64,000 nucleotides of DNA, from assembly GCF_009914755.1 (NCBI RefSeq), contig NC_060927.1, one strand, 5' to 3'. The stretch is from the human T2T-CHM13v2.0 reference genome, Homo sapiens. Position 1 is the stretch's first letter. Each line of letters starts with the position of its first letter. Shown piece by piece: positions 24,586 through 43,815 of this stretch. Under the pieces are notes generated by a model. It was not told where the DNA came from. It saw only the letters and a program-made list of their open reading frames with translations, and made no database searches. A program made the translations under genes and the position numbers.

Positions 24586-25203
24586 CGGGTTTGTCACCTC
24601 TTCCTGTCCCAGGAAAGTGCTGGTTCCCAAGAGCACTCCCAGGTAATGGGTTGAGGTTTTCCACTATGGGCCCCAGCACCAGTTCTGGGCCCCAGGAAAT
24701 TCTCTGTGGACGCTGTGCTCTTACCCCGTGCATGGACATTGAGCTATTGGTAGGTCTTTACAAACAATCCTGGGTCCACTATTCTGAGAGGAGCTGAACT
24801 CCTGTGTGAGACACCACATCGGAAACACCAGGGCCAAAAGCACAGATGGAGTCTTCCTTTGCTTCCCCAAAGGAAGAATGCACAGGAGCCTGGCACTCCT
24901 GGACCTGAGGAAACCCTGAAATGTTGGCATCTGCAGATCCTCTCCAAAAAGAGGTCACCAGTCTCCTAACTGCAAGTCTGACCCCAGCATTCTGGGAGCC
25001 AAGAGGGAGAAAGAGTCTGTGGATCTCCCTGCTCAGTAAATTGGCTTTCACTAAATCCTCTCTGTGCATAAGCAGCATTACCCAGTGTCCTGGAGCTTAG
25101 AAAAGTCCTGTTTCAATGTCTGAAGAAAATAAATTGTTTCTTTTTCCAAAGTCAGGGAGGAGTATTTGACTGCCAGTGTGGACTGAGGGGTCTTGGGATC
25201 ACA

Positions 25204-25470
25204 CTCTTCCCAATCAGCTTTGAACCGACCCTCTGTGTCTGCCTCACCATCTCCTCTGCTTATCTAGACACTTGGGAACCCTAACACAAGCCCTTCTAGG
25301 AGTCTGTGGTGTGGCTCAGCTGCCTCTGTAGGCATGTCTCTTCCCAATGTGCTTTGAACCGACCTTTCTGTGTCTGCCTCACCATCTCCTCTCCTTACCT
25401 AGACACTTGAGAACCCTAACACAAATCCTTCTAGGAGTCTGTGGTGTGGCTCAGCTGCCTCTGTAGGCAT
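25204..25470. repeat. Tandem duplication, 2 x ~134 bp
   Basis: CTCTTCCCAAT...GCCTCTGTAGGCAT present twice. Confidence 0.9.
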
Positions 25471-25706
25471 CTCTTGGGGTTAAACATTTTCCACTCTGCT
25501 AAGGCAGTGCCATCTATTCTTCTGCTTCATCTTCAGAAGACACTGAGCCCTTCCCCACCCTCCCTTCCCCACCCCCCACACCAAGTCCGTGGCACCCTTG
25601 AGGCCACAGGGTTGCTGCCATAAGATTTTTGTACTGAGTGTTCTCTCTCCAAGCAACTGTGAGAGATTTCTATGGGCAAGGCCTCTGGGTTCCTGTTAAA
25701 TCAAAT

Positions 25707-26250
25707 TGTAGTTGAGTGTTGGGTGCTATTCAAGAAGCATCCACCTTTCTCCTTCCTAACAGAGCCCTGAGTTATTCAGTCACATGGTTTGAAACATGGG
25801 GTGAGTGCTGGTTGACTTAACCTAACCAGCACCGTCTCACCCTGTGTCACAGTTACTGGTTCCAAGGTGGGTGCATAACTGAGGCTCATGCTAGGTGCCA
25901 CACAGCACTCCCTTGGTCCCCCTAATGGACTTGGGGATGGGCAAGGGCCTGCGTTGTTCCAATTAGAGTCAAATACACATTGTGCTAAGAGTGTGCTTGT
26001 TCATGCTCCCTCTTTGATGAAGAATGCAGCCTCAGAAATTGTTCCTGGAGATTTTGCCACACTCAGAATGATTCTGACTTCACTGAAGGCAGAGCAGAAA
26101 ATTGGGAAGAGACTGAGTCCTGGGTAGCATCCATGAGCTTCTGTGCTCAGATTCACCCTGAAGCCTGGCCTGCTTCTGAACTACCCACCTGAGTCAATAA
26201 ATTGCCTTCCCATTAAAGTCAAATTGAGCTGGATTTTTAGTTACTTGCAC
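25707..26250 (+). mobile_element. Old MaLR (MLT1-like) LTR
   Basis: Ends ...TGAGTCAATAAATTGCCTTCCC...GAGCTGGATTTTTAGTTACTTGCA, typical of an MLT1 3' end. Confidence 0.55.
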
Positions 26251-26937
26251 CTGCAGGTGTTCTGTGAAGCTGGTACTGTGAGTTTGTATTTGAGAATATT
26301 TACAGTTTCTCTCATGGTTGAGTCAATCATTTCAAGGATGCTTTGAGGGTAAAAAGAATGATCAATTGTGAAGCAGTGAATTGTGCTGCCAGGCACAATT
26401 CATTGGGCAATAGAAAGCCTCATTTCCTGGGCAGTAGAAAGTTTCATTGTACATTAGTTACATATCTTGTTTCTGTCTCAACCTCCTATTTTTTCATATG
26501 CAAAGGAGGTAAGGAAGTCCACATAAGTCCAGCAGCTAATATGCCTCTCAGGCATGATCCAAAACAGAATTGAATTATGCAAGCCTTGTTAAAATTCATT
26601 GTCGTCATTCATATTTCTGAATATTTAAATTAGAAATTCTGAAAAAGTAGTTTGTTTCAGAGGTAGTTTGTGTGTATGTAGGTATTTTTTCAGGATCAAA
26701 AGTTTATTTTTTATTGTCTGATTGAGTTTAATTTACATATAATAAAATTTAGTAATTTTAAGTGTACAAATGAATGCATTTTGACAAATATATATAGTCA
26801 TGTACACAACACTACCATTGAAATACATTTCATTACCCCGAAAATTCCCTTGCATGCTGCTGTAGTCAGTGCCCCCTCCACCACAGCTCCTGGCAGTTGC
26901 TTTCTTTCACTCTGGTTTTGTCTGAGAATTTGATACA

Positions 26938-27206
26938 GGCCACGTGTGGTGACTCATGGCTGTAATCCTAGCACTAGACTGAGAAGGGAGGATCACTTGA
27001 ACAAGGAGTTTGGGTAACATAGCAAAACCCTGTCTCAAAAAAAAATACACACACACAAAAACTTAGCCAGGTGTGGTGGCACACACCTGTGGTCCCAGCT
27101 ACTCAGGAGGCTGAAGAATCACCTGAGCCTGGGAGGTCAAGGCTGCGGTGATCTGTGATCACATCACTGCACTCCGGACAGAGTGAGATGTTGTCAAAAA
27201 AAAAAA

Positions 27207-27286
<80 letters not shown>

Positions 27287-27289
27287 AAA
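26938..27289 (+). mobile_element. AluJ with (GAAA)n tail
   Basis: Degenerate Alu followed by a GAAA run at ~27209-27289. Confidence 0.85.
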
Positions 27290-27660
27290 GCATTTGATAT
27301 AAATGGAATCATACAGTAAATTATCTTATACCTGGTTTCTTTCATATATTTTAATGCCTTTGAGCTATGTCCATGTGGTTTCCAGTGTGTATGTCATTCT
27401 TCTTACGTTGGGCAGTAACCACTGCAGGAATATATTACAGCTTGTTTATCTATTCTGCAGTGATAGACTATTTTAAAAATATTTGGCTATTAAGAAGAAA
27501 GTTGTTAAGAATACTTATATTCAGGCCTTTGTGTAAACAGATTTTCACTTCTCTTGGTTGAAAACATAGGAGGAATTATTATTTTTTAAGTCATGGATTT
27601 TTAAATGATTGTCAGTTACTTTAAAAAATGTAAATTCTTAAATTAAAAAGTTTAGGATGT

Positions 27661-28947
27661 CTGACAACCCTGACAAAAGCAAGCAATGGGAAAAGGATTC
27701 CATATTTAATAAATGGTGTTGGGAAACCTGGCTAGCCACATGCAGAAAACTGAAACTGGACCCCTTCCCTACACCTTACACAAAAATTAACTCAAGATGG
27801 ATTACAGACTTAAATGTTAGACCTAAAACCATAAAAACCCTAGAAGAAAACCTAGGCAATACCATTCAGGACATAGGCATGGGCAAGGACTTCACAACTA
27901 AAACACCAAAAGCAATGGCAACAAAAGCCAAAATTGACAAATGGGATCTAATTAAACTAAAGAGCTTCTGCACAGCAAAAGAAACTACCATCAGAGTGAA
28001 CAGGCAACCTACAGAATGGGAGAAGATTTTTGCAATCTATCCATCTGACAAAGGGCTAATATCCAGAATCTACAATGAACTTAAACAAATTTACAAGAAA
28101 AAAACAACCCCATCAAAAAGTGGGCAAAGGACATGAACAGACACTTCTCAGAAGAAGACATTTATGTGGCTGAAAAATACATGAACAAAAGCTCATCATC
28201 ACTGGTCACTAGAGAAATGCAAATCAAACCCTCAGTGAGATACCATCTCACACCAGTTAGAATGACAATCATTAAAAAGTCAGGAAACAACAGATGCTGG
28301 AGAGGATGTGGAGACATAGGAACGATTTTACACTGTTGGTGGGAGTGTAAATCAGTTCAACCATTGTGGAAGTCAGTGTGGCAATTCCTCAAGGATCTAG
28401 AACCAGAAATACCATTTGACCCAGCCATCCCATTACTGGGTATATACCCAAAGGATTATAAATCATTCTACTATAAAGACACACGCACACGTATGTTTAT
28501 TGCAGCACTAGTCACAATAGCAAAGAATTGCAACCAACCCAAATGCCCATCAGTGATAGACTAGATAAAGAAATGTGGCACATATAAACCACGGAATACT
28601 ATGCAGCCATAAAAAAGGATGAGTTCATGTCCTTTGCAGGGACATGGATGAAAATGGAAACCATCATTCTCAGCAAACTAACACAGGAACAGAAAACCAA
28701 ACACCACACGTTCTCACTCATAAGTGGGAATTGAACAATGAGAATGTATGGACACAGGGAGGAGAACATCACACACTGGGACCTGTCAGGGCGGGTGGGG
28801 GCCTAGGAGAGGGATAGCATTAGGAGAAACACCTAATGTAGATGATGCGTTGATGGGTGCAGCAAACTACCATGGCACGTGTATACCTGTGTAACAAACC
28901 TGCACGTTCTGCTCATGTATCCCAGAACTTAAAGTACAAAAAAAATA
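27661..28947 (+). mobile_element. 5'-truncated L1PA (ORF2 C-terminus, 3' UTR, A tail)
   Basis: ORF2 peptides [28 protein letters not shown] and [19 protein letters not shown]; degenerate TSD AAAAGTTTAGGATGT / AAAAGTCACAGGATGT. Confidence 0.93.
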
Positions 28948-29600
28948 TAAAAGTCACAGGATGTTTGTGATAGTATCTATTACACTGATGTTAACATCAC
29001 ATGGTTGACTATGTGGAGACTCCAAGTGAAATTTCTTGCAGTTGTCAGTGCCAGGAAAATCTGTATTTCTGGATAAAACTCAAAGAGTTTAGAAAAACAT
29101 TCAAGTTTCATAGTCTAGAGGTCTAACACTGGAATCTTTTCCAAATTTAAGGTTTAATGATTTTCTTAAATCTAAAAATAGTAGGTTGCAGATGTATTTA
29201 AACAGTGTGCCTAGGTAGTATGTTTATATATTAGGATTAAAATGCTCTTCTAAAGTTTACTAATTCTAACACAGCCTTTATTGTTTCATGGAGACATATC
29301 TTTCCGATTCCCAGGTTAATTTAAACAATTAATTCAAAGCAACTATTGACTTAGTTCTAGATTGGGATACCTATTTATGCATTTGAAGCCTTAGATATGT
29401 ATTTCAAATTAGAAACGTGTGCTGGTCATGGAAAGTTGTGACTGAGAGTCTCAGGTAAGTTTTGTTTCCATGTGAACACACTGCTTCCAATTAATGTTAT
29501 GCCCAGAGCAGACAATTAATAAACACCCTTTGAAGTGAATGAGTGATTAACTGCAAATATTACAATACATCTTCTTAGTGGGCATGATAATTGGACATAT

Positions 29601-32600
29601 TTAGTCCTTGCTGTGACCTAAGAAAGGAATTGTTTTCATTAAATGTTTAATGTTTCACCCTGTTCATACAGCTGGAGTTACTGATTCAGTTTGATGTGAA
29701 TTCAGTCTTATAAAAAACCCATCATTATAACCTGCACTTATGCTTCCTACAGTATCGGAACTTCCAACTTGTAGGCAAAATAGATATGCTTCATATTCTT
29801 AAAAACCACAAGAAATCTCCCTTTATTCAGAATAAACATAGAATTAGATATTCTATTAAACTGAACAATAGGACTCACTGGGAGTAACCACATACACTAT
29901 ACCACGCATTGCCCGAGTGTCTGAAAAGGTCACTGGACCATTTCGCTCCATGCTGTGCCACGGGCCAACCACGAGGGCTGTCAGTGACTCACTGCGTGGG
30001 CCACCCAGGGCATGTGGTGCTGAGGCTGTCGAAGAGCAAGACGAGGCTGTATTTAAACTCAGGCCTCTGCTAAGTGTCAGAACTTGGGCAAGATGCCATA
30101 CACTTTAGAGCCAGTTTCCTTTTCTATGACTGGGTTATAACACTCACCCTGTCAGGTTCTCGTGTGCGTTGACAAGGCCGGCATGTGACACACCAGGGGC
30201 AGAGCTGGACGGGAACCTTCTTCCTCAGACATCAGGGTCCTCATGAGCATCAACAAAATAAGGAGAGCTGTGTCAGGACTGCAGCAGGGACTCAGCAACA
30301 ATCATTTTCTTTCTCTTGTTTCATCCAAATCATACATTTAAAAAAATAGGTGGGGTTATCATTGATGTTTATATTGATTACTGGGATCAGACAAATACAC
30401 CTTTCCTTGTCATGCTGTTTTCTCTTCCCAGATGGTTTGAAGAGCTTCATTTTGGACTTGATACTCCTGGAATGCACATGAGAAACAGTAGCCAATGATT
30501 TGCACATTTCACAGCAGTGTAGCTCTTCATTCACAAACTCAGATAGAAAAAAAAAACAAAAAAACTTCTTGTATTTTCTAATGAGTTCAGTCTTGACCCT
30601 GAGCCATCTCCCCTCCAGAATGGCAGGACACTCCACTCCACCATTGTTGTGGGGCCACAATTTCACTAATCAAGGGCTCCTTGGCTTCTGAAAAATGGGA
30701 GATGCACCTCTAATAACCAGTCTAGATTGTCACTGCTCACTTCCTTATTTTCCAATTCCACAGGGGCCCCCAAAGCCCAGAAGATCTCATTTCCGGGCAT
30801 CTTATAGACCATGGGAACCTGGTAACACTGGGAACCCCGGGGCCAGCACCCACCTCATGTTCACCCTGTTTCCATCACCTTCTAGGCATTGCTACAGAGC
30901 AGTGTTGGGACCCACTGGAGATCTGACTGCTCCCAGCCTGGAAAACTGCCTTCTCTCTCTCCACTGAGCTCATGATATTTCTGCTTTCCGCCCCACAGAA
31001 ATCCTTGAATGAAGCACAAAAGGGACTGGTAGTTACCTGGTGTGAAGCAGAGCTGAGCCTATGGGAGGAAGCAATATTGCAATGGACTCTGTCATTGATG
31101 TCACTAGTGCACAAATCTGTTACCACTATGGTCAAATTTTTATATTCACTTTAAGATTATAACTCATTCTGCTCATTGTATTCAATGCAACATCTACCCC
31201 AAAAGATACTCAGGCTTTAATTTATGCTTTTCTGTTTACAAATGAGAATTCATCAGCAAATTGAGGTAGCAAGTAGATATTTAGATATTTTTTAAATTGA
31301 AGGCAAAACAGAAGACACATACACATACATCAGTGAAACAGAACAGAGAACCCAGAAACAGAATGAAATGCAGCCAACTGATTTCTGACAAAGGAGCAAA
31401 AGCAATTCAATGGAGAAAGGAGAGTCTTTTTAACAAATGGTTCTGGAACAAGTGGGCATCCACATGCAAAAAAAAAAGAATATGTAACAGACCTTATACT
31501 TTTTACAAAAGTTAATGCAAAGTAGATATTAGACCAATATATGAAATGTAAAATTTTCAAACTTCTAGAAGATAACATAAGGAAAAAAAATCTAGATAAC
31601 TTTGGATTTGGTGTTTTTTTTTTCAGATACAACACCAAAAGCATGATCCACAAAGAAAAAAATTGGGAAGTTTAATTTCATTAACATGAAAAACTTTTGT
31701 TTTCAAAAGATACTGTTAAGAGAATAAAAAGATAAATCACAGACTGCGAGAAAATATTTGCAAAATATATCTAAGGATTCATATCTGAAATACACAAAGA
31801 ACTCTTAAAACTCAACAATGAGAAAACAAACAAAACTGGGCAAAAGCTGAACAAATCTGCAGATGGAAACTAAGTATATGAAAAGATGCTGTGTATAATA
31901 TGTTATTAGGAATTGCCAATTAAGATGCAATAAGATACCACTACACACCTGTTAGAATGGCCACAATCCACAAGAATGAAAGCACCAAATGCTGGTGAGG
32001 ATGTGGAGCAATGAGAACTCTCATTCATTGCTGTGGGAATGCAAAATGGCACAGCCACTTTGGAAGACAGTTTGGCAGTTTTTACAAAGCTCACATAGTC
32101 TTGTCATAAGATTTAACAATTGTGTTCCTCATTATTTACCCAATGGAGTTGAAGAGTTATATCCACACACAAACTTGCACACAAATGTTTATAGAAATGT
32201 GGGCAGCAAGCCACCCAGGTGCCGATGTAAGAGACCGAGGGCACGAGCTGTTCCAGTGTAATAAAATATGTAAAATAACAAGAGTTATACTAGATCTAGA
32301 TCATAGACATGATTATCTATGAATATCATTCATCATTAGTTTGTAGCAATTACTCTTTATTCCAATATTATAATAACCCTCGCTCTATAATCATAACCCA
32401 GGAAAAGCCAGGCCATACAGAGATAGGAGCTGAGGGGACATAGTGAGGAGTGACCAGAAGACAAGGGTGCGAGCCTTCTGTTATGGCCGGACCGGGCCAC
32501 CAGAGGGCTCCTTGGTCTAGCGGTAACGCCAGTGCCTGGGAAGACGCCCGTTGCCAAGCGGACTGTGGTCTAGTGGTAGCGTCAGTGTCAAGGAAAAACA

Positions 32601-35600
32601 CCCGCTACCTAGCAGACCGGGAAAGGGAGTCTCCCTTTCCCCGGGGGAGTTTAGAGAAGACTCTACTCCTCCACCTTTTGTGGAGGGCCTGACATGAGTC
32701 AGGCCCGCCTGCAGTTATCCGGAGGCCTAACCGTCTCCCTGTGATGCTGTGCTTCAGTGGTCACGCTCCTGGTCCGCTCTCATGTTCCACTCTGCACACC
32801 TGGCTCTGCCTTCTAGATAGCAGTAGCAAATTAGTGAAAGTATTAAAGTCTTTGATCTTTCTGAAAAGAGCATAGAAAAAATAATGGCATAAGCTGTCCT
32901 CTCTGTCTCTCTGACTCGGCTGCCAAACAGGGAAGGGCCCCCTGTCTGGTGGACACATGACTCCGTGACCTTATCAATCAGTTGGATGACTCACAGTCTT
33001 TACCCTGCCCCTTTTGCTTTGTATCCAATAAATAACAGCGCAGCCTGGCATTCGGGGCCACTACTGGTCTCTGCGTCTTGGTGGTAGTGGTCCCCCGGTC
33101 CCAGCTGTCTTTTCTTTTATCTCTTTGTCTTGTGTCTCTTTTTCTACAATCTCTCATCTCTGCACATGGGGAGAAAAAACCCACAAACCCTGTAGGGCTG
33201 GCACCTACATAGAAGCTTTATTCAGAATTACCAGAAACGAGGTGACCAACATGTCCTTCAGTAGGTGAATTGAGAAATAAATTCTGGTACCTACAGACAA
33301 TGGAATATCATTCAGTGAGAAAAGAAATGAGCTATCAAGTCATGAAAAGGCATACAGGGACCCAAAATGCACATTACTAAGTGAAAGAAGCCAAAAAGGC
33401 TACATACTGTAAGATTCCAATTATGTGACATTTTGGAAAAGGAAAAACTACATAGAGAGTAAAATATCTATGTAATTACGTGACATTTTGGAAAAGGGAA
33501 AATTACATAGATAGTAAAATAATCAGTGGTCGACAGGGGTTGGGGAGAGGAAAGGATGGATGGGCAGAGAGCCCCGGATGTTTAGGGCAGTGAGATCACT
33601 GTGTGCGATTTCACCACAACGGTGGACCCACGACAGTGTGCAGATGCCAACACCCACTGAACGCAGACCACAAAAAGGTATTAATTACATAAACTATGAA
33701 CTTTCATAATGAAGTAAATCATGTTTTAAAAAAGTAGACAGTTTTTTTTTTCAGTTATTGTCTACTTTCTGAAATGGAGATAGCGGAGTGCTTCCATGGT
33801 TGTGAGGATAAAAATAGCTTAGAGAATGTAATAACTAAAATAGGTGTGTAAACATTGTTAAACTATTTTATCCTCATTAAATATATTTGTAACTTTTTAC
33901 AACTGAGCGAGTAGTGCAAACACATTAACATAATTCTCCTGTAGCTCCACTCAGAAGTCAGGACTGCAGGGCTTCAGTGCAGGGCCACACAGCTCCACAC
34001 GCACCTGCCAAACGCAACAGCCTCTTTCAGCGTCATTAAAATATTTCAACAGGAGGACTGAGTTTAGACTCAACCTGTGTTTTCTCCCCTGGAAAACGAA
34101 GGTTTCATGAAGCAAGGAAGGTCTTTACTGTCCTCATCCAAAACGCTGAGGCATCTGTGATGTCTGCTGTAAGTGCCACCAGGCTCTCCGCTGAAATCTC
34201 GCAACGGGAAAATAGAGACCGTAGATTCTGCTTTTAGAAAGGGGAGAATCAGAAGTAATGTGGAAATGCCATGTCCTCGTTCATAAACATCTTCTTTTAC
34301 AAATTCCACAAGTTTAGTTACTTTGGGATTAATATGGGCTTATCTTAAAGTGCGTTTATTAACTTAGCGTGAGTTGTTCAAATGCATTCTGGATCCTGAG
34401 CCGACATCCAGCAATGCTGAGTGTGCGCCTGTGTGAGTCACCAGCCCTGATGAGCCTCAGGTTATTGTGTTCGTAAAATGAAGGGGCTTAGGCTTGCTGC
34501 GATTTTTTAAAAACCATTTTTAACAGTAAAAATTTTTTTCTTGCTACATAAAAATGTACAAGAAAAACTCAGACATTACCAATGATAAATTATAATTTTA
34601 TTAATATAAATATTTTTGTGAGCTCAATTTATATGACTTAGTTATTATAAAAGAAATAAGCAATATGAGGTGGCCATTACCATCCTGTCCCGTTTTATTT
34701 TGTTCATATGCTATTGATAAATCTTGATGTATACAGAAAAGTAGTTTCAAAGAATAATAATTTTTAAAAAGGACTTGTAATTTCAAGAGACTTTAAAAAA
34801 AATCTGCAATTGCTTTTTAAAGGTTCTAAAACAGTTTTCTATGCCTTAAAGCTAAATAACTACAAAGAGCTCACTCTTCTCACATTCTGTATTATAAATA
34901 TGTAAGTCAGAGAAACAACAGACAAAATCATAAAAACACATGCATGAACAAATGGGCCTTGGTTTACATTTAATTGGATCTTGCAATACACATGGGTTAT
35001 AGTAGTATTTCTGTGTGTAATTTTACACGAGTGGATTGCTATCAAAATAAAAATTGTCTACAATCTCTTTTCAGTGGTAAATTTGCACAAATGGTAAACA
35101 TACACATAGAGATAGTGGGAGAAATTTATTTCGTGGCTTGCAAGAAGACAGGTTAAGTTGGGACATTTAATTGTTTCATTAATGCTACATTTTAAATGCA
35201 CTTGTATGGGCATGGTATTTTAATGTATTATTATGACTTTTAAATGCTCAGTGTTACAGATGGAATATTAGAGCAAGTACTAACTTATATCTTCTTTGTG
35301 TGTGCTTTGGAGGCATCAGGAAATAAAGCAGCCCTTTTCCCTTTTCCCAGAAGCTGTGCTTCTGCAGATTAGATCTCTCTGTAACACACACACACCCATG
35401 CACGCATGAGCGCACACACACGCACACACACACGAGCACACACACGCACGCGCACGCACACACATGCACACACACGCACAACACACACGCACACGCACAC
35501 ACACGTGCACACATACACCCAATATAGCCTTTAGGGTTAAAAGGAGGAAAAGAGAATTTGCCTGGATAACTCTTACCCAGGTATTTTCTGGGGAGATCTA

Positions 35601-37801
35601 GAATAATCTAAGGGGGTAAGCTGGACTAGCCAATGGGAAATCAAAACGAAGATACTGGAGAGATGTTCCCAGAAGAGGAGCATTCCTAATGGGCTTGGCC
35701 CTAGTCACATGCAATTCCCCAGATGTGGTTGGTGTGGCCAAGGTTCCAGCATTTGTCAGCTGCTTTCTTGCCACTTCTTGTGCTGTGAGGAGTATCCCCT
35801 CCCCAATGCCAGAGGCAGTCGTCCTCTAACCCCCTTCAGAGTAAAGGGCCAGCAATTGGCAGTCACAGGAAAAGTAGTGAGACAGGAAGGTGCGGAGCAT
35901 GAAGTCCCACCATACCGGCCTCCAGTGTCTGGCACAGAATATGACGAGGAACCTCCGTGAATTGGAATCTTCCACATCTTGATATATGGGAGTTTCTGCT
36001 AGATATAATTTGACTTAAAAAAGAAAGAAATATGACCTTCTTCACCTAAATATTGTAGAAGAGGTAATGATTGCAACCTGGATGTTTTACATTCTGAGAT
36101 GCTATTAAACCAATATTCATCACAAATGTATTGATAATTTTTTAGAAGAACAGAAGAGATCCCATCATATTAAATGAAGTGTATCAATTATAAGATGCAT
36201 GCTAACTCCAGAAAAAGCAAAGCATGAAAAAAATCTGTCTTAGAATGGAAAAATACAGTAGTTAAACTATTTTTAACTGGAATTTAAATGCAACATTTTA
36301 GGATATGAAGCTGTCAACTCATTTTGAAAACTGCTGGCTCAGATGACCTCAGCGATAGGAAACCTCTAAAAGATCATGAATCTAATCAGGTAATTTTCTG
36401 TGCCTTTGCCTGAGAGTCTAGCTGAAAGTGGTGCAGTTTTTACAGAAGAGGAATAACGTGTCCCGAACTGGGAACCCTTCACCGGCCACCACTCCAGGCG
36501 GCGCTTCACTGTGGAGTTTTGGTCGCCAGAGGGCTCCAGGGGACTGCTGGGGAAGGCCAGGACATGGAAGAGGGCCTAGAGCCAGGGTTACCCGGGAGGG
36601 GGTGGACCCATTTTGCCAAGCACCTGAGGACCATACCGTACAGGATCCTCTCAAAACCACCCGCACACTAGGTGGGAATAAAGGATAAGAGAAATTAATG
36701 TGTGCTTAGCATGTGAGAGCTGACATTCAGAGTCAGCCTGAGCAAAGAGATTCATACGGAAGGACGACGCGCATGTTGTGAGACAAAGAACACCCAATTA
36801 TAAGATAGAAAACCTCGGTTCTGGGAAATTCCTGAACCTGTTTGCCCATCCATGAAAGAGTAAGAATGATACTACCTTCTCCACCTTTTTCTTGTAACAG
36901 AACTGCCCGTTTCTTTCGTGCCCACAGCTAAGTGTTTAATAGGAACAATGTGACAAATATAAGGTCATTGCTCTTACACAAAAGGTTCAAGAAAACTGAG
37001 AAAGATCTAAAAATTCCCAAAGGAATGATTTTTCAAAGTACAACATCTTAATTTACATAGAGAGAAATAATACATTTTGTCTCAAATAAAGATTTGGCCA
37101 CATCCTAAGTATAGCATTGAAGAGCAGTTAAGCTATTTCTTCAAAGAAAATATACCAAAATTAAACCTGTACTTTTTGAGCGTGAATTCTAACACACAAA
37201 CCTGGTGCAATATATTTAAAACAAAGCAGAGATTAATTAATTAATTAATGATTCCCCATCACCATTTTCAGAAAACCCAGTAACTTAGTGCCTTAAGATG
37301 TTCAAATCATCCCAAAAACTTGAGTTACTAAATATTTTCAAAACCCTTTCTCAAGCTTTGCTATTCTAGCTTTAGTTGGAAGAAGAAGCTTCCAAGTTAA
37401 AGATGGTAGACGAAATACTGACCCAGTTGTGTCCTTTCCCTCCTGAGAAACCATGGTGGCTATCCACGATGGAGAGAGAGCAGCGGAGACAAAAAGTGAT
37501 TTGATGGCCTCGCATCCGTGAGAAGGAGCATCATCTGTGGACCTTCCTGGGGGTGAGGGGCAGAGAAGTGAGGCAGGCATCAGAAAACAGGAGGGTCGAT
37601 TAAAATCTGTACATTGACAGTCAACCCTCATTATCCTCCCTCACCGATGCCAGCACCCCACCCCTCGGGTAACCAGTGAGTAGAACACCAACAACCAACA
37701 AGCAAGCAGCTGCCTTCCAGAGAGGAGAGGAGAAGGTTTTCTCCAGAGGAAGGAAACCATCCAGACCAAAGGCATCACTTACTAACATGCGGAAACCCCA
37801 T
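29601..37801 (-). CDS. Candidate unannotated 9-exon coding gene or intact gene remnant, 212 aa (exons 37801-37783, 37546-37423, 36013-35916, 34227-34075, 31058-31037, 30466-30401, 29952-29879, 29797-29732, 29617-29601)
   Basis: Manual splice reconstruction: all introns GT-AG, all eight junctions phase-compatible, 639 nt ATG to TAA without internal stop, AATAAA ~320 nt downstream (29282-29277). No family recognised; some splice sites weak. Confidence 0.4.
31290..33720 (+). mobile_element. Old L1M(C) ORF2 end and 3' UTR, split by LTR13
   Basis: ORF2-like [20 protein letters not shown]; L1MC-type 3' UTR at 33300-33720. Confidence 0.75.
32198..33209 (+). mobile_element. Solo LTR13 inserted in an old L1
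   Basis: TGTGGGCAGCAAGCCACCCAGG...GGGCTGGCACCTACA; TSD TAGAAA/TAGAAG; homologous to 2952-3968 in the opposite orientation. Confidence 0.88.
35384..35519. repeat. (CA/CG)n alternating purine-pyrimidine tract
   Basis: Directly visible. Confidence 0.9.
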
Positions 37802-37822
37802 CGACTCCCCGAAGCAAAACCT

Positions 37823-38501
37823 CTAGACGAGCCTTTCACTAATGATAACACACTCATTCTCCTTCACGTGTTACTATTAAATGTGAACAGTGAAGAATCA
37901 CCACCTAGACGAGCCTTTCACTAATGATAACACACTCATTCTCCTTCATGTGTTACTATTAAATGTGAACAGTGAAGAATCACCACCTAGACGAGCCTTT
38001 CACTAATGATAACACAGACTCATTCTCCTTCTTCACGTGTCACTATTAAATGTGAACAGTGAAGAATCACCATCTAGATGAGCCTTTCACTAATGATAAC
38101 ACAGACTCATTCTCCTTCTTCACGTGTCACTATTAAATGTGAACAGTGAAGAATCACCATCTAGACGAGCCTTTCACTAATGATAACACAGACTCATTCT
38201 CCTTCATGTGTTACTATTAAATGTGAACAGTGAAGAATCACCACCTAGACGAGCCTTTCACTAATGATAACACAGACTCATTCTCCTTCATGTGTTACTA
38301 TTAAATGTGAACAATGAAGAATCACCATCTAGACAAGCCTTTCACTAATGATAACACAGACTCATTCTCCTTCTTCACGTGTCACTATTAAATGTGAACA
38401 GTGAAGAATCACCATCTAGACGAGCCTTTCACTAATGATAACACAGACTCATTCTCCTTCTTCACGTGTCACTATTAAATGTGAACAATGAAGAATCACC
38501 A
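37823..38501. repeat. VNTR, 8 units of 82-87 bp
   Basis: CTAGAC/TGAGCCTTTCACTAATGATAAC... recurs at 37823, 37905, 37987, 38074, 38161, 38245, 38329, 38416. Confidence 0.97.
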
Positions 38502-38668
38502 GACATTGAAGGGAAACCCATCTCAATGGGAAAAAAGACCAAGGTAAACCAGCAGGCGGAATGATTGTTGAGAACCTAACATCATAGCAAAATAAGAAAT
38601 AAGAGTTTTATATTATCATTCACTTAGTGGCACTGTCTGAGGTTTCACTATACAAATATATTGCTTTG

Positions 38669-38692
38669 ATATGTGTGTGTATATATACATAC

Positions 38693-38753
<61 letters not shown>

Positions 38754-38968
38754 TTTTCTGAGTCTCGCTTTGTTGCCCAGACTGGAGTACAGTGGTGTAA
38801 TCTTGGTTCACTGCAACCAAGGTCTCCCGGGTTCAAGCGATTCTCCTGCCAATTTTCATCTTTTAAGTGGAGACAGGGTTTTGCCATGTTGGCCAGGCTG
38901 GTCTCAAACTTCTGACCTCAGGTGATCTGCCCGCCTTGACCTCCCAAAGTGCTGGGATTATAGGCATG
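38669..38968 (-). mobile_element. (TA)n plus internally deleted antisense Alu
   Basis: TA run, poly-T, then an Alu lacking the segment between CTCCTGCC and AATTTT. Confidence 0.85.
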
Positions 38969-39206
38969 ATAGAGTTTTAACTATTAGAAGAAACCAGAGG
39001 AAGCTACCATTGGAATAGATGAAACATCAGCAATACATTAAAATATCAGCAATTTCACATGTTCGAGATTACTTTTAAAAAATAAAAAGAGAACAGAATT
39101 GATTTAGTTTCTAGGCCAGCAACCAAGGAAAAAGCAAGGAATGGAAGATTTTATAATCGCATAACAATAGCAAGATCTTACATTTCTATTGAGCTTTAAA
39201 GATTAC

Positions 39207-43815
<4,609 letters not shown>

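What the first reader, a model, noticed from the sequence alone, without database searches (positions are those of the whole stretch)
29277..37873. Hidden 9-exon minus-strand gene model splicing into an unbroken 212-aa ORF, invisible in the six-frame track
Seen: non-repetitive islands on the minus strand are bounded by AG acceptors (e.g. cacttctctgcccctcacccccag, tttctttcttttttaag, attgcttcctcccatag) and GT donors. Exon lengths are 19, 124, 98, 153, 22, 66, 74, 66 and 17 nt; junction phases 1,2,1,1,2,2,1,1 all match, including a 22-nt micro-exon that supplies exactly the needed phase shift. Product: [212 protein letters not shown], followed by AATAAA at 29282-29277. The L1 and LTR13 in intron 4 are antisense to it, the usual bias for intronic retroelements (weak support). 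Inference: an unannotated gene, or the 3' part of a rapidly evolving gene carried in a duplicated block. Caveats: I chose splice sites by eye, which inflates apparent phase agreement; three donors (gttgag, gtgtat, gttata) and the exon-7 acceptor are weak; the ATG has a weak Kozak context with an in-frame TAG upstream.
Basis: partly seen in the sequence, partly recalled or inferred. Interest (0 to 1): 0.85.

Follow-up and report, generated by a model that had tools for sequence, protein, structure and literature searches.

The report
Chance ORF over known TFRC-downstream exons
The nine-piece "hidden gene" can be assembled as described, but its unbroken reading frame is what free choice among many splice-like sites gives by chance; the real part is a handful of already annotated, apparently non-coding exons downstream of the transferrin receptor gene, lying in a block of DNA present three times in the human genome.

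Summary
The chain is in the sequence exactly as described: nine AG..GT-bounded minus-strand segments, 639 nt, 212 codons plus stop, and AATAAA at 29282-29277.

The open frame carries no weight. All 21 of 21 controls also reach at least 275 aa.

Part of the model is real and already annotated. E4 and E5 are exact RefSeq TFRC alternative-transcript exons. The acceptors of E2, E3 and E6 are also RefSeq acceptors (coincidence P about 4e-9). E1, E7, E8 and E9 are not listed.

The region is a 12-15 kb duplicon with copies on chr2p and chr5p. Those copies carry nonsense codons, frameshifts, a deletion and lost splice sites. Exons diverge as fast as the surrounding sequence, and pN/pS is at the neutral value.

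No Pfam family or real protein relative was found.

Verdict: non-coding alternative exons with an artefactual ORF. A young protein specific to the chr3 copy is not strictly excluded.

The parts
37783..37801 (-). Reader exon E1 (ATG + 16 nt, donor GTAAGT). Not among the RefSeq exons listed. Lies 21 nt downstream of the 87-bp tandem array.
   Evidence: hub table
37423..37546 (-). Reader exon E2. The acceptor at 37546 equals the upper end of RefSeq exon 30854-37546. The donor at 37423 is not among the listed exon ends.
   Evidence: 64 nt and the donor are deleted in the chr5 paralog
35916..36013 (-). Reader exon E3. The acceptor at 36013 equals that of RefSeq terminal exon 34960-36013. Read on, the frame stops at 35865.
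34960..36013 (-). RefSeq-listed terminal exon. There is no GT after 34960, and ATTAAA lies just upstream of its end. It contains a CA/CACG-type simple repeat at 35384-35513.
   Evidence: hub table
34075..34227 (-). Reader exon E4, identical to RefSeq exon 34075-34227 (a 34075-34230 variant also exists). One of three frames is open.
   Evidence: three genomic copies
31037..31058 (-). Reader micro-exon E5, identical to RefSeq exon 31037-31058. Long forms 30854-31058 and 30854-31003 are also listed.
   Evidence: both splice sites are lost in the chr2 paralog
30148..30466 (-). RefSeq exon. Reader exon E6 (30466-30401) shares its acceptor but uses an unlisted donor at 30401.
29879..29952 (-). Reader exon E7. 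Not listed by RefSeq. Weak acceptor (7 of 15 pyrimidines).
29732..29797 (-). Reader exon E8. Not listed by RefSeq. AAG acceptor, donor 4/7.
29601..29617 (-). Reader exon E9 coding part (ends in TAA). Not listed by RefSeq.
28962..29068 (-). RefSeq-listed terminal exon.
   Evidence: hub table
32197..33208 (.). Solo-LTR-like insertion of 1012 bp with a 6-bp target duplication. Absent from both paralogs, so it was inserted in the chr3 copy after the duplication. Family and orientation not tested.
31285..32261 (+). LINE-1 ORF2-derived sequence, antisense to the model.
37822..38501 (.). 87-bp tandem array, 8 copies, 95% matches. The paralogs have 7 (chr2) and 14 (chr5) copies.
24840..39493 (.). Low-copy duplicon holding the whole model. 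chr5:23118-35657 matches window 24840-39493. chr2:158256-168953 matches window 27656-39207.

Best explanation
The interval lies in a 12-15 kb low-copy duplicon about 20 kb downstream of the canonical TFRC 3' end. The duplicon has three copies: 3q29, distal 2p and distal 5p.

It contains a set of genuine but probably weakly used splice sites. RefSeq already models these as alternative 3' exons of extended TFRC transcripts: 34075-34227, 31037-31058, 30148-30466, 28962-29068, 34960-36013 and long unspliced forms.

I infer that these exons are non-coding, or at most add a short out-of-frame tail to TFRC.

With hundreds of AG and GT sites in 8.6 kb, that is always possible.

Shown here:
- the chain exists;
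- it is not more than chance;
- it partly coincides with RefSeq exons;
- the block is duplicated;
- the paralogs are broken in this frame and show no coding constraint.

Inferred: the transcripts are TFRC read-through or alternative-last-exon products of low abundance with no protein function of their own.
For: (1) Combinatorics. 21 of 21 controls give ORFs of 275-799 aa.

(2) Annotation. 2 of 9 exons are exact RefSeq exons, 3 of 9 share only the acceptor, and 4 of 9 are unlisted (and hub table). The longest ATG-ORF on chains of the short RefSeq exons is 76 aa.

(3) TFRC frame. TFRC's penultimate coding exon ends in phase 0.

(4) Paralogs. In chr2, codons 33 and 90 are TGA and E5 has AG->TG and GT->GC. 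In chr5, 64 nt of E2 plus its donor are deleted and E4 has -2, -3 and +1 indels.

(5) No constraint.
- Exon versus non-exon substitutions are 7.04% vs 6.98% for chr2 and 7.72% vs 7.04% for chr5.
- Substitutions by codon position are 12/13/19 and 12/15/17.
- pN/pS is 0.74 and 0.52. The null from non-exonic pseudo-codons has median 0.73-0.75 and a 5-95% range of 0.44-1.42.

(6) No family.
- Pfam gave 0 families reaching their cut-offs for 6 ORF pieces.
- 1.84 billion representative proteins gave three matches. One is a 79-aa GTG-start ORF call that runs through intron sequence. The other two are repeat-protein matches that I judge spurious.
- A six-frame search of the own genome finds only the three copies.
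Against: The paralog test has little power for the chr3 lineage alone.

- All frame breaks are derived in chr2 or chr5. The inferred common ancestor was open at every codon that could be resolved.
This is one-sided P 0.048-0.056, uncorrected, and 5.3% of random same-length segment sets are as low.
- Those 9 changes split 4 synonymous to 5 non-synonymous (P 0.21).
- RefSeq-listed exons show no such deficit: 56 of 1715 against 109 of 4396.

Other limits:
- I could not see RNA-seq, Ribo-seq or primate orthologs.
- I could not see which RefSeq models (XM or XR) carry these exons, how they join TFRC, or the one further exon the hub table does not show.
- Splice sites were scored by simple consensus counts only, not by MaxEntScan or SpliceAI.
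Confidence: 0.85

Rival explanations
1. The exons belong to an independent long non-coding RNA gene carried by the duplicon, perhaps starting near the 87-bp array. RefSeq would then have merged it with TFRC because of read-through reads. The ORF is still an artefact.
For: The duplicon is a self-contained module about 20 kb from the TFRC 3' end. 10 of 12 RefSeq splice dinucleotides are kept in chr2 and 12 of 12 in chr5, although at about 93% identity that is expected anyway. RefSeq lists a 6.7-kb unspliced exon 30854-37546, which is typical of poorly processed non-coding transcripts (hub table).
Against: RefSeq files the exons under TFRC (hub table). No promoter evidence was obtained. E1 is not listed. 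Two paper searches found nothing on such a transcript (88 papers, of which I saw the 15 listed titles and abstract starts; 1 paper, where the phrase probably means signalling downstream of TFRC, judged from the title and abstract start).
Confidence: 0.25
2. A short product is translated from the annotated transcripts. Candidates are a TFRC isoform that lacks its last coding exon and ends in a 4-41-codon tail from this region, or the 76-aa ORF on the chain 34227-34075 | 31058-31037 | 30466-30148 | 29068-28962.
For: One search shows the frames and lengths: stop after 28, 4, 41 and 40 codons from acceptors 37546, 36013, 34230 and 34227, and a 76-aa ATG-ORF on the annotated chain.
Against: How the listed exons join TFRC is not visible to me. 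There is no constraint on these exons. Such transcripts would be expected targets of nonsense-mediated decay, or would lose the TFRC C-terminal region; this rests on general knowledge and was not tested.
Confidence: 0.07
3. One reading: a 212-aa protein-coding gene, young and specific to the chr3 copy.
For: The chain is intact in chr3. Five acceptors and two donors are real. There is a marginal deficit of chr3-specific substitutions in the nine exons. The breaks in the paralogs are derived.
Against: Searches show that chance fully explains the open frame. The model needs four unlisted exons and two donors that RefSeq exons run past, plus a third (37423) that is not among the exon ends shown. 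The ATG context is weak with an upstream in-frame stop. There is no domain or relative. Exon and non-exon divergence are equal.
Confidence: 0.02
4. The RefSeq models are themselves artefacts, for example reads from the chr2 or chr5 paralogs placed on chr3, or noise. In that case nothing here is a functional transcript.
For: The three copies are 86-95% identical, so short reads could be misplaced. The models include odd multi-kilobase exons (hub table).
Against: At 5-14% divergence most reads map uniquely. The chr2 copy lacks the E5 splice sites. The listed sites have good consensus: donors score 5-6 of 7 at three of four, and acceptors have 10-14 of 15 pyrimidines.
Confidence: 0.08

Closest known systems
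RefSeq predicted alternative transcripts of TFRC that extend about 30 kb beyond the canonical 3' end (gene span 28962..92440 in the hub table)
   Same: Same strand. E4 and E5 are identical exons. The E2, E3 and E6 acceptors are identical.
Read-through (downstream-of-gene) transcription with use of cryptic exons, giving non-coding or decay-prone isoforms (general knowledge, not tested here)
   Same: The exons lie beyond a strong gene's polyadenylation site. Long unspliced exon forms exist alongside spliced ones. There is no sequence constraint.
   Different: Whether transcription really comes from the TFRC promoter was not observable with these tools.
Chance ORFs in long non-coding RNAs or de novo gene candidates
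   Same: No homologs, no domains, neutral substitution pattern, weak start context.
   Different: Even the transcript that would carry this ORF is not annotated as a whole. Only parts of it are.
Low-copy segmental duplications shared between 3q29 and the distal short arms of chromosomes 2 and 5
   Same: Three collinear copies of 11-15 kb at 86-95% identity. They carry copy-specific insertions (LTR in chr3, Alu-sized inserts in chr2 and chr5) and a deletion.
   Different: I could not check whether this particular duplicon is catalogued. No annotation of the chr2 and chr5 sites was available.

Membership tests
Protein-coding gene (spliced ORF) | Open reading frame longer than expected by chance, given how it was found | tested here: not met
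   5.8e10 to 1.25e17 alternative chains of at least 639 nt in the same interval. 21 of 21 controls reach 275 aa or more.
Protein-coding gene (spliced ORF) | All exons and junctions supported by transcript models | tested here: not met
   2 of 9 exons are exact, 3 of 9 share the acceptor only, and 4 of 9 are absent from the RefSeq list (hub table). One further RefSeq exon is not shown to me. No RNA-seq was available.
Protein-coding gene (spliced ORF) | Purifying selection on the frame (fewer substitutions than introns, excess at third positions, dN/dS below 1, no frame breaks in relatives) | tested here: not met
   Exon and non-exon divergence are equal. Codon-position counts are 12/13/19 and 12/15/17 and pN/pS is at the locus null. 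The paralogs have stops, frameshifts and a deletion. For the chr3 lineage alone there are only 9 changes, giving a marginal deficit at P about 0.05, which is inconclusive for that lineage.
Protein-coding gene (spliced ORF) | Similarity to a known domain or protein | tested here: not met
   Pfam: 0 families at their cut-offs for 6 ORF pieces. Representative library: only a GTG-start ORF call on the same DNA and 2 repeat-protein matches that I judge spurious. The joined 212-aa peptide itself was not searched or folded.
Annotated alternative 3' exons of TFRC (RefSeq models) | Coordinates and strand coincide with listed exons and have canonical splice sites | tested here: met
   E4 is 34075-34227 and E5 is 31037-31058. 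Acceptors 37546, 36013 and 30466 are shared. All listed internal borders are AG/GT. The coincidence is beyond chance.
Annotated alternative 3' exons of TFRC (RefSeq models) | Physically joined to TFRC exons in transcripts | not testable with these tools
   Only the hub's exon list is available. There are no transcript structures or reads.
Segmental duplication | At least 1 kb, non-transposon, high-identity copies elsewhere in the same genome | tested here: met
   chr2:158256-168953 and chr5:23118-35657 are collinear with window 24840/27656-39207/39493 at 86-95% identity.
Solo LTR of an endogenous retrovirus (reader: LTR13) | Dispersed copies about 1 kb long, a target-site duplication, and an empty site in a paralog | tested here: met
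   39 dispersed copies of the roughly 1.0-kb unit at 86-90% identity are listed. A 6-bp duplication flanks 32197-33208, with a single copy at the chr2 empty site. The family name LTR13 and the orientation were not tested, as no repeat library was available.
LINE-1 fragment antisense to the model | Similarity to L1 ORF2 protein on the + strand, in order | tested here: met
   Window 31285-31515 (+) matches ORF2p residues 913-950 and 31980-32261 (+) matches 1144-1175, with E 2e-6 to 2e-4. Pfam found nothing for these pieces.

The most novel reading that the evidence does not exclude
After the duplication, the chr3 copy alone kept or acquired a translated open frame, giving a young ape- or human-specific protein (the 212-aa chain or a shorter version on the annotated exons). 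The chr2 and chr5 copies then decayed. The evidence does not exclude this. Every frame break is derived in a paralog, the inferred ancestor was open at all resolvable codons, and chr3-specific changes in the nine exons are slightly fewer than elsewhere (9 of 570 against 159 of 5778) with 4 synonymous to 5 non-synonymous.
Probability: 0.03. Interest if true: 0.5.

Novelty: already known. Interest (0 to 1): 0.1.

Why it matters
The main value is as a calibration case. A by-eye reading of raw sequence recovered several true splice acceptors: 5 of the 7 RefSeq acceptors in the interval.

It also shows that phase agreement across hand-picked exons carries no evidential weight. An 8.6-kb stretch of ordinary human DNA, and its shuffles, offers millions to billions of open chains of up to nine exons.

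Biologically the locus is ordinary: annotated, unconstrained alternative exons downstream of TFRC, inside a three-copy duplicon near the proximal edge of the 3q29 region.

If the long-shot reading were true, it would be one more young lineage-specific ORF.

Tried and rejected
- **Pfam on six stop-to-stop ORF pieces carrying E2, E3, E4, E6, E7 and E8.** Nothing apart from one match at E 0.14, below its cut-off.
- **Rfam at gathering thresholds on 28000-39000.** 0 matches, so there is no hosted small RNA to explain a non-coding host gene.
- **Pfam on + and - strand ORFs inside the L1 and LTR.** Nothing reached a family cut-off; one match at E 0.0079 scored below its curated cut-off. The L1 was confirmed instead through solved ORF2p structures.
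- **Representative-protein search with the 89-aa ORF around E4.**
  - The 99%-identical 79-aa hit starts at a GTG inside the intron and ends at the stop just past the donor.
  - The two weaker hits are internally repetitive proteins matched in 6-8 stretches. I judged them spurious.
- **Two paper searches.**
  - One search found 88 papers. I read only the 15 listed titles and abstract starts, all on the 3q29 deletion or cancer.
  - One search found 1 paper, seen as title and abstract start only. Its phrase 'downstream of TFRC' probably means signalling.
  - Neither search surfaced a description of these exons.
- **A search above 38600 for continuation of the duplicon.** It returned only dispersed repeats. 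The boundary was set instead by direct alignment of fetched flanks.
- **Considered and rejected: that the paralog breaks alone disprove a chr3 gene.** They do not, because they are derived in the paralogs.
- **Not done:** any search or fold of the joined 212-aa peptide; MaxEntScan or SpliceAI scoring; codon-usage or hexamer scoring (no human reference set was at hand).
Full report
**1. Observation**

- The exons are E1 37801-37783, E2 37546-37423, E3 36013-35916, E4 34227-34075, E5 31058-31037, E6 30466-30401, E7 29952-29879, E8 29797-29732 and E9 29617-29601.
- All internal borders are AG..GT and the phases are 1,2,1,1,2,2,1,1.
- The join is 639 nt with one terminal stop.
- AATAAA at 29282-29277, the upstream in-frame TAG and the weak start context (T at -3) are as stated.

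The description is therefore accurate.

**2. Is it more than chance?**

I scored donors by matches to the 7 variable consensus positions. I scored acceptors by pyrimidines in positions -18 to -4.

A dynamic programme then enumerated every ATG-to-stop chain of at most 9 exons (exon at least 17 nt, intron at least 70 nt).

|---|---|---|
| 5/7 and 11/15 | 333-aa ORF still possible | 6 |
| 5/7 and 12/15 | maximum falls below 212 aa (184 aa) | 6 |

Controls at 4/7 and 10/15:
- The + strand of the same interval gives 374 aa.
- Ten other interval and strand combinations of equal length give 275-799 aa.
- Ten dinucleotide shuffles give 327-534 aa.
- All 21 of 21 controls exceed 212 aa.

Phase agreement, including the 'just right' 22-nt micro-exon, therefore has no evidential value. 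The real minus strand has the highest chain count of the 22 sequences. It is close to one control (4.9e10), and I give this no weight.

**3. What is real**

I compared the model with the hub's RefSeq table.

- E4 equals exon 34075-34227 and E5 equals exon 31037-31058.
- The acceptors of E2 (37546), E3 (36013) and E6 (30466) are RefSeq acceptors.
- This is 5 of the 7 RefSeq acceptors in the interval (P 3.8e-9) and 2 of the 4 donors (P 1.2e-3).
RefSeq extends TFRC to 28962 with these exons.
- E1, E7, E8 and E9 are not in the list. One listed exon is not shown to me.
- RefSeq's version of E3 runs to 34960. There is no GT there, and ATTAAA lies just upstream, so it looks like a transcript end.
- RefSeq's version of E6 runs to a 6/7 donor at 30148.

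In the long form of E5 it stops at 31035.

The longest ATG-ORF on chains of the short RefSeq exons is 76 aa.

TFRC's penultimate coding exon ends in phase 0. The last coding part is 243 nt, and I checked the translation.

**4. Duplicated block**

The window's genome could be searched.

- The E4 region has exactly three copies: chr3, chr2 (90%) and chr5 (89%).
- The whole 29000-38600 interval is collinear with chr2 and chr5 segments near the ends of their short arms.
- With fetched flanks, chr2:158256-168953 matches window 27656-39207 and chr5:23118-35657 matches window 24840-39493 (for the lower chr5 part).

Copy-specific events:
- A 1012-bp LTR-like element at 32197-33208 is present only in chr3. 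It has a 6-bp target duplication, chr2 holds the empty site, and one search lists 39 dispersed copies at 86-90%.
- chr2 has an Alu-sized insert at about window 36017-36037, next to the E3 acceptor tract. chr5 has another at about 29417-29427.
- chr5 has a deletion of about 760 bp spanning 37487-36729.
It has 8, 7 and 14 copies in chr3, chr2 and chr5.

**5.

*chr2 copy*
- There are no indels in the nine segments.
- E5 has lost both splice sites (AG->TG, GT->GC).

*chr5 copy*
- 64 nt of E2 and its donor are deleted.
- E4 has -2, -3 and +1 indels.

*Six-frame protein searches of the genome* with the E4 and E6 ORF pieces find only these three loci. The paralogs are interrupted by stops or split between frames.

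*Substitution rates*

|---|---|---|
| chr2 | 45/639 (7.04%) | 390/5584 (6.98%) |
| chr5 | 44/570 (7.72%) | 316/4489 (7.04%) |

*Frame-level tests*
- Substitutions by codon position are 12/13/19 and 12/15/17.
- pN/pS is 0.74 and 0.52.
- The same statistic on non-exonic pseudo-codons has median 0.73-0.75 and a 5-95% range of 0.44-1.42. 51% of null samples fall at or below 0.74, and 12% at or below 0.52.

There is no sign of constraint at the protein level.

**6. Results that lean the other way**

A three-way comparison assigns each change to one lineage.

This is one-sided P 0.048-0.056, and 5.3% of random same-length segment sets are as low.
- The nine changes split 4 synonymous to 5 non-synonymous (P 0.21).
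- The chr2 stop at codon 90 and the chr5 indels are derived in those copies, so the common ancestor was open wherever it could be resolved.
- This is what one expects when the chain was chosen to be open in chr3 and chr3 sits only 1.6-2.8% from the ancestor.
- RefSeq-listed exons show no deficit: 56 of 1715 against 109 of 4396.
- chr5-specific changes are slightly more frequent in the exons (34 of 570 against 231 of 5778, P 0.036).

I treat these as noise. They do mean that a young ORF specific to chr3 cannot be excluded from paralogs alone.

**7. Homology**

- Pfam finds nothing for six ORF pieces.
- Rfam finds nothing in 28000-39000.
- The 1.84-billion-protein library gives one 79-aa, 99%-identical entry. 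It starts at a GTG within the intron and ends just past the E4 donor, so it is a gene-finder call on the same DNA.
- It also gives two matches to internally repetitive proteins, which I judge spurious.
- The joined peptide itself was not searched or folded.

**8. Side claims**

- The L1 in intron 4 is on the + strand, antisense to the model. Its pieces match LINE-1 ORF2 protein residues 913-950 and 1144-1175, in order.
- The LTR is real, but its family name and orientation were not tested.

**9. Interpretation**

*Best explanation (0.85).* These are unconstrained, most likely non-coding exons that RefSeq already models as 3' extensions of TFRC. They lie in a three-copy duplicon, and the 212-aa ORF is a combinatorial artefact.

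*Open question.* It is unclear whether the exons are TFRC read-through products or an independent non-coding transcription unit that RefSeq merged with TFRC (0.25 for the latter).

*Less likely alternatives.*
- A short translated tail or small ORF (0.07).
- Artefactual RefSeq models (0.08).

*Literature.* Two searches surfaced nothing on transcripts downstream of TFRC. I read only listings, and no paper was opened.

**10. Verdict**

- Novelty: already known (annotated exons), with an artefactual ORF on top.
- Interest is low.

Noticed in passing
window 37822-38501; L024 8208-8812; L025 7076-8285: An 86-87-bp tandem array sits near the TFRC-proximal end of the duplicon. It has 8, 7 and 14 copies in the chr3, chr2 and chr5 copies, with 95-97% matches within each array. 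This makes it a likely variable minisatellite.
   Followed up: partly
window 32197-33208: A 1012-bp LTR-like element is present only in the chr3 copy. It is flanked by a 6-bp target duplication, and chr2 keeps the empty site. It therefore inserted after the duplication and could help date both events.
   Followed up: partly
window ~36017-36037 (chr2 copy) and ~29417-29427 (chr5 copy): The paralogs carry Alu-sized (about 300 bp) insertions. These match the window's own Alu-like repeats at 80-89% identity. The chr2 insert sits in the T-rich tract just upstream of the E3/RefSeq acceptor at 36013.
   Followed up: no
window 36729-37487 (absent from chr5 copy): The chr5 paralog has a deletion of about 760 bp that removes the 3' half of E2 and its donor.
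   Followed up: partly
window 24840-39493 against chr5: Identity to the chr5 copy is mosaic. It is 94-95% for window 24840-26819, 29417-30485 and 37487-38500, and 88-90% for the stretches between. This suggests gene conversion or a composite history.
   Followed up: no
window 27656-28952: A repeat of about 1.3 kb has at least 38 dispersed genomic copies at 89-91% identity. It forms the lower limit of detectable chr2 paralogy.
   Followed up: no
P0001, matching window 34073-34309 minus strand: The metagenome-derived protein library holds a 79-aa GTG-start 'protein' that is 99% identical to intron-plus-exon sequence here. It is probably host DNA passed through a prokaryotic gene finder, and serves as a caution for reading hits from that library.
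   Followed up: partly
hub gene table, upstream of window: The table lists MUC4 on + and MUC20 on -, in the order MUC4, MUC20, SMBD1P, MIR570, SDHAP1 before TFRC. From memory, GRCh38 has the opposite orientations with TNK2 between MUC4 and SDHAP1. This assembly may therefore carry an inverted arrangement between the SDHAP-type duplications. This rests on recall and was not tested.
   Followed up: no
window 35384-35513: A CA/CACGC-type simple repeat lies inside the RefSeq terminal exon 34960-36013.
   Followed up: no
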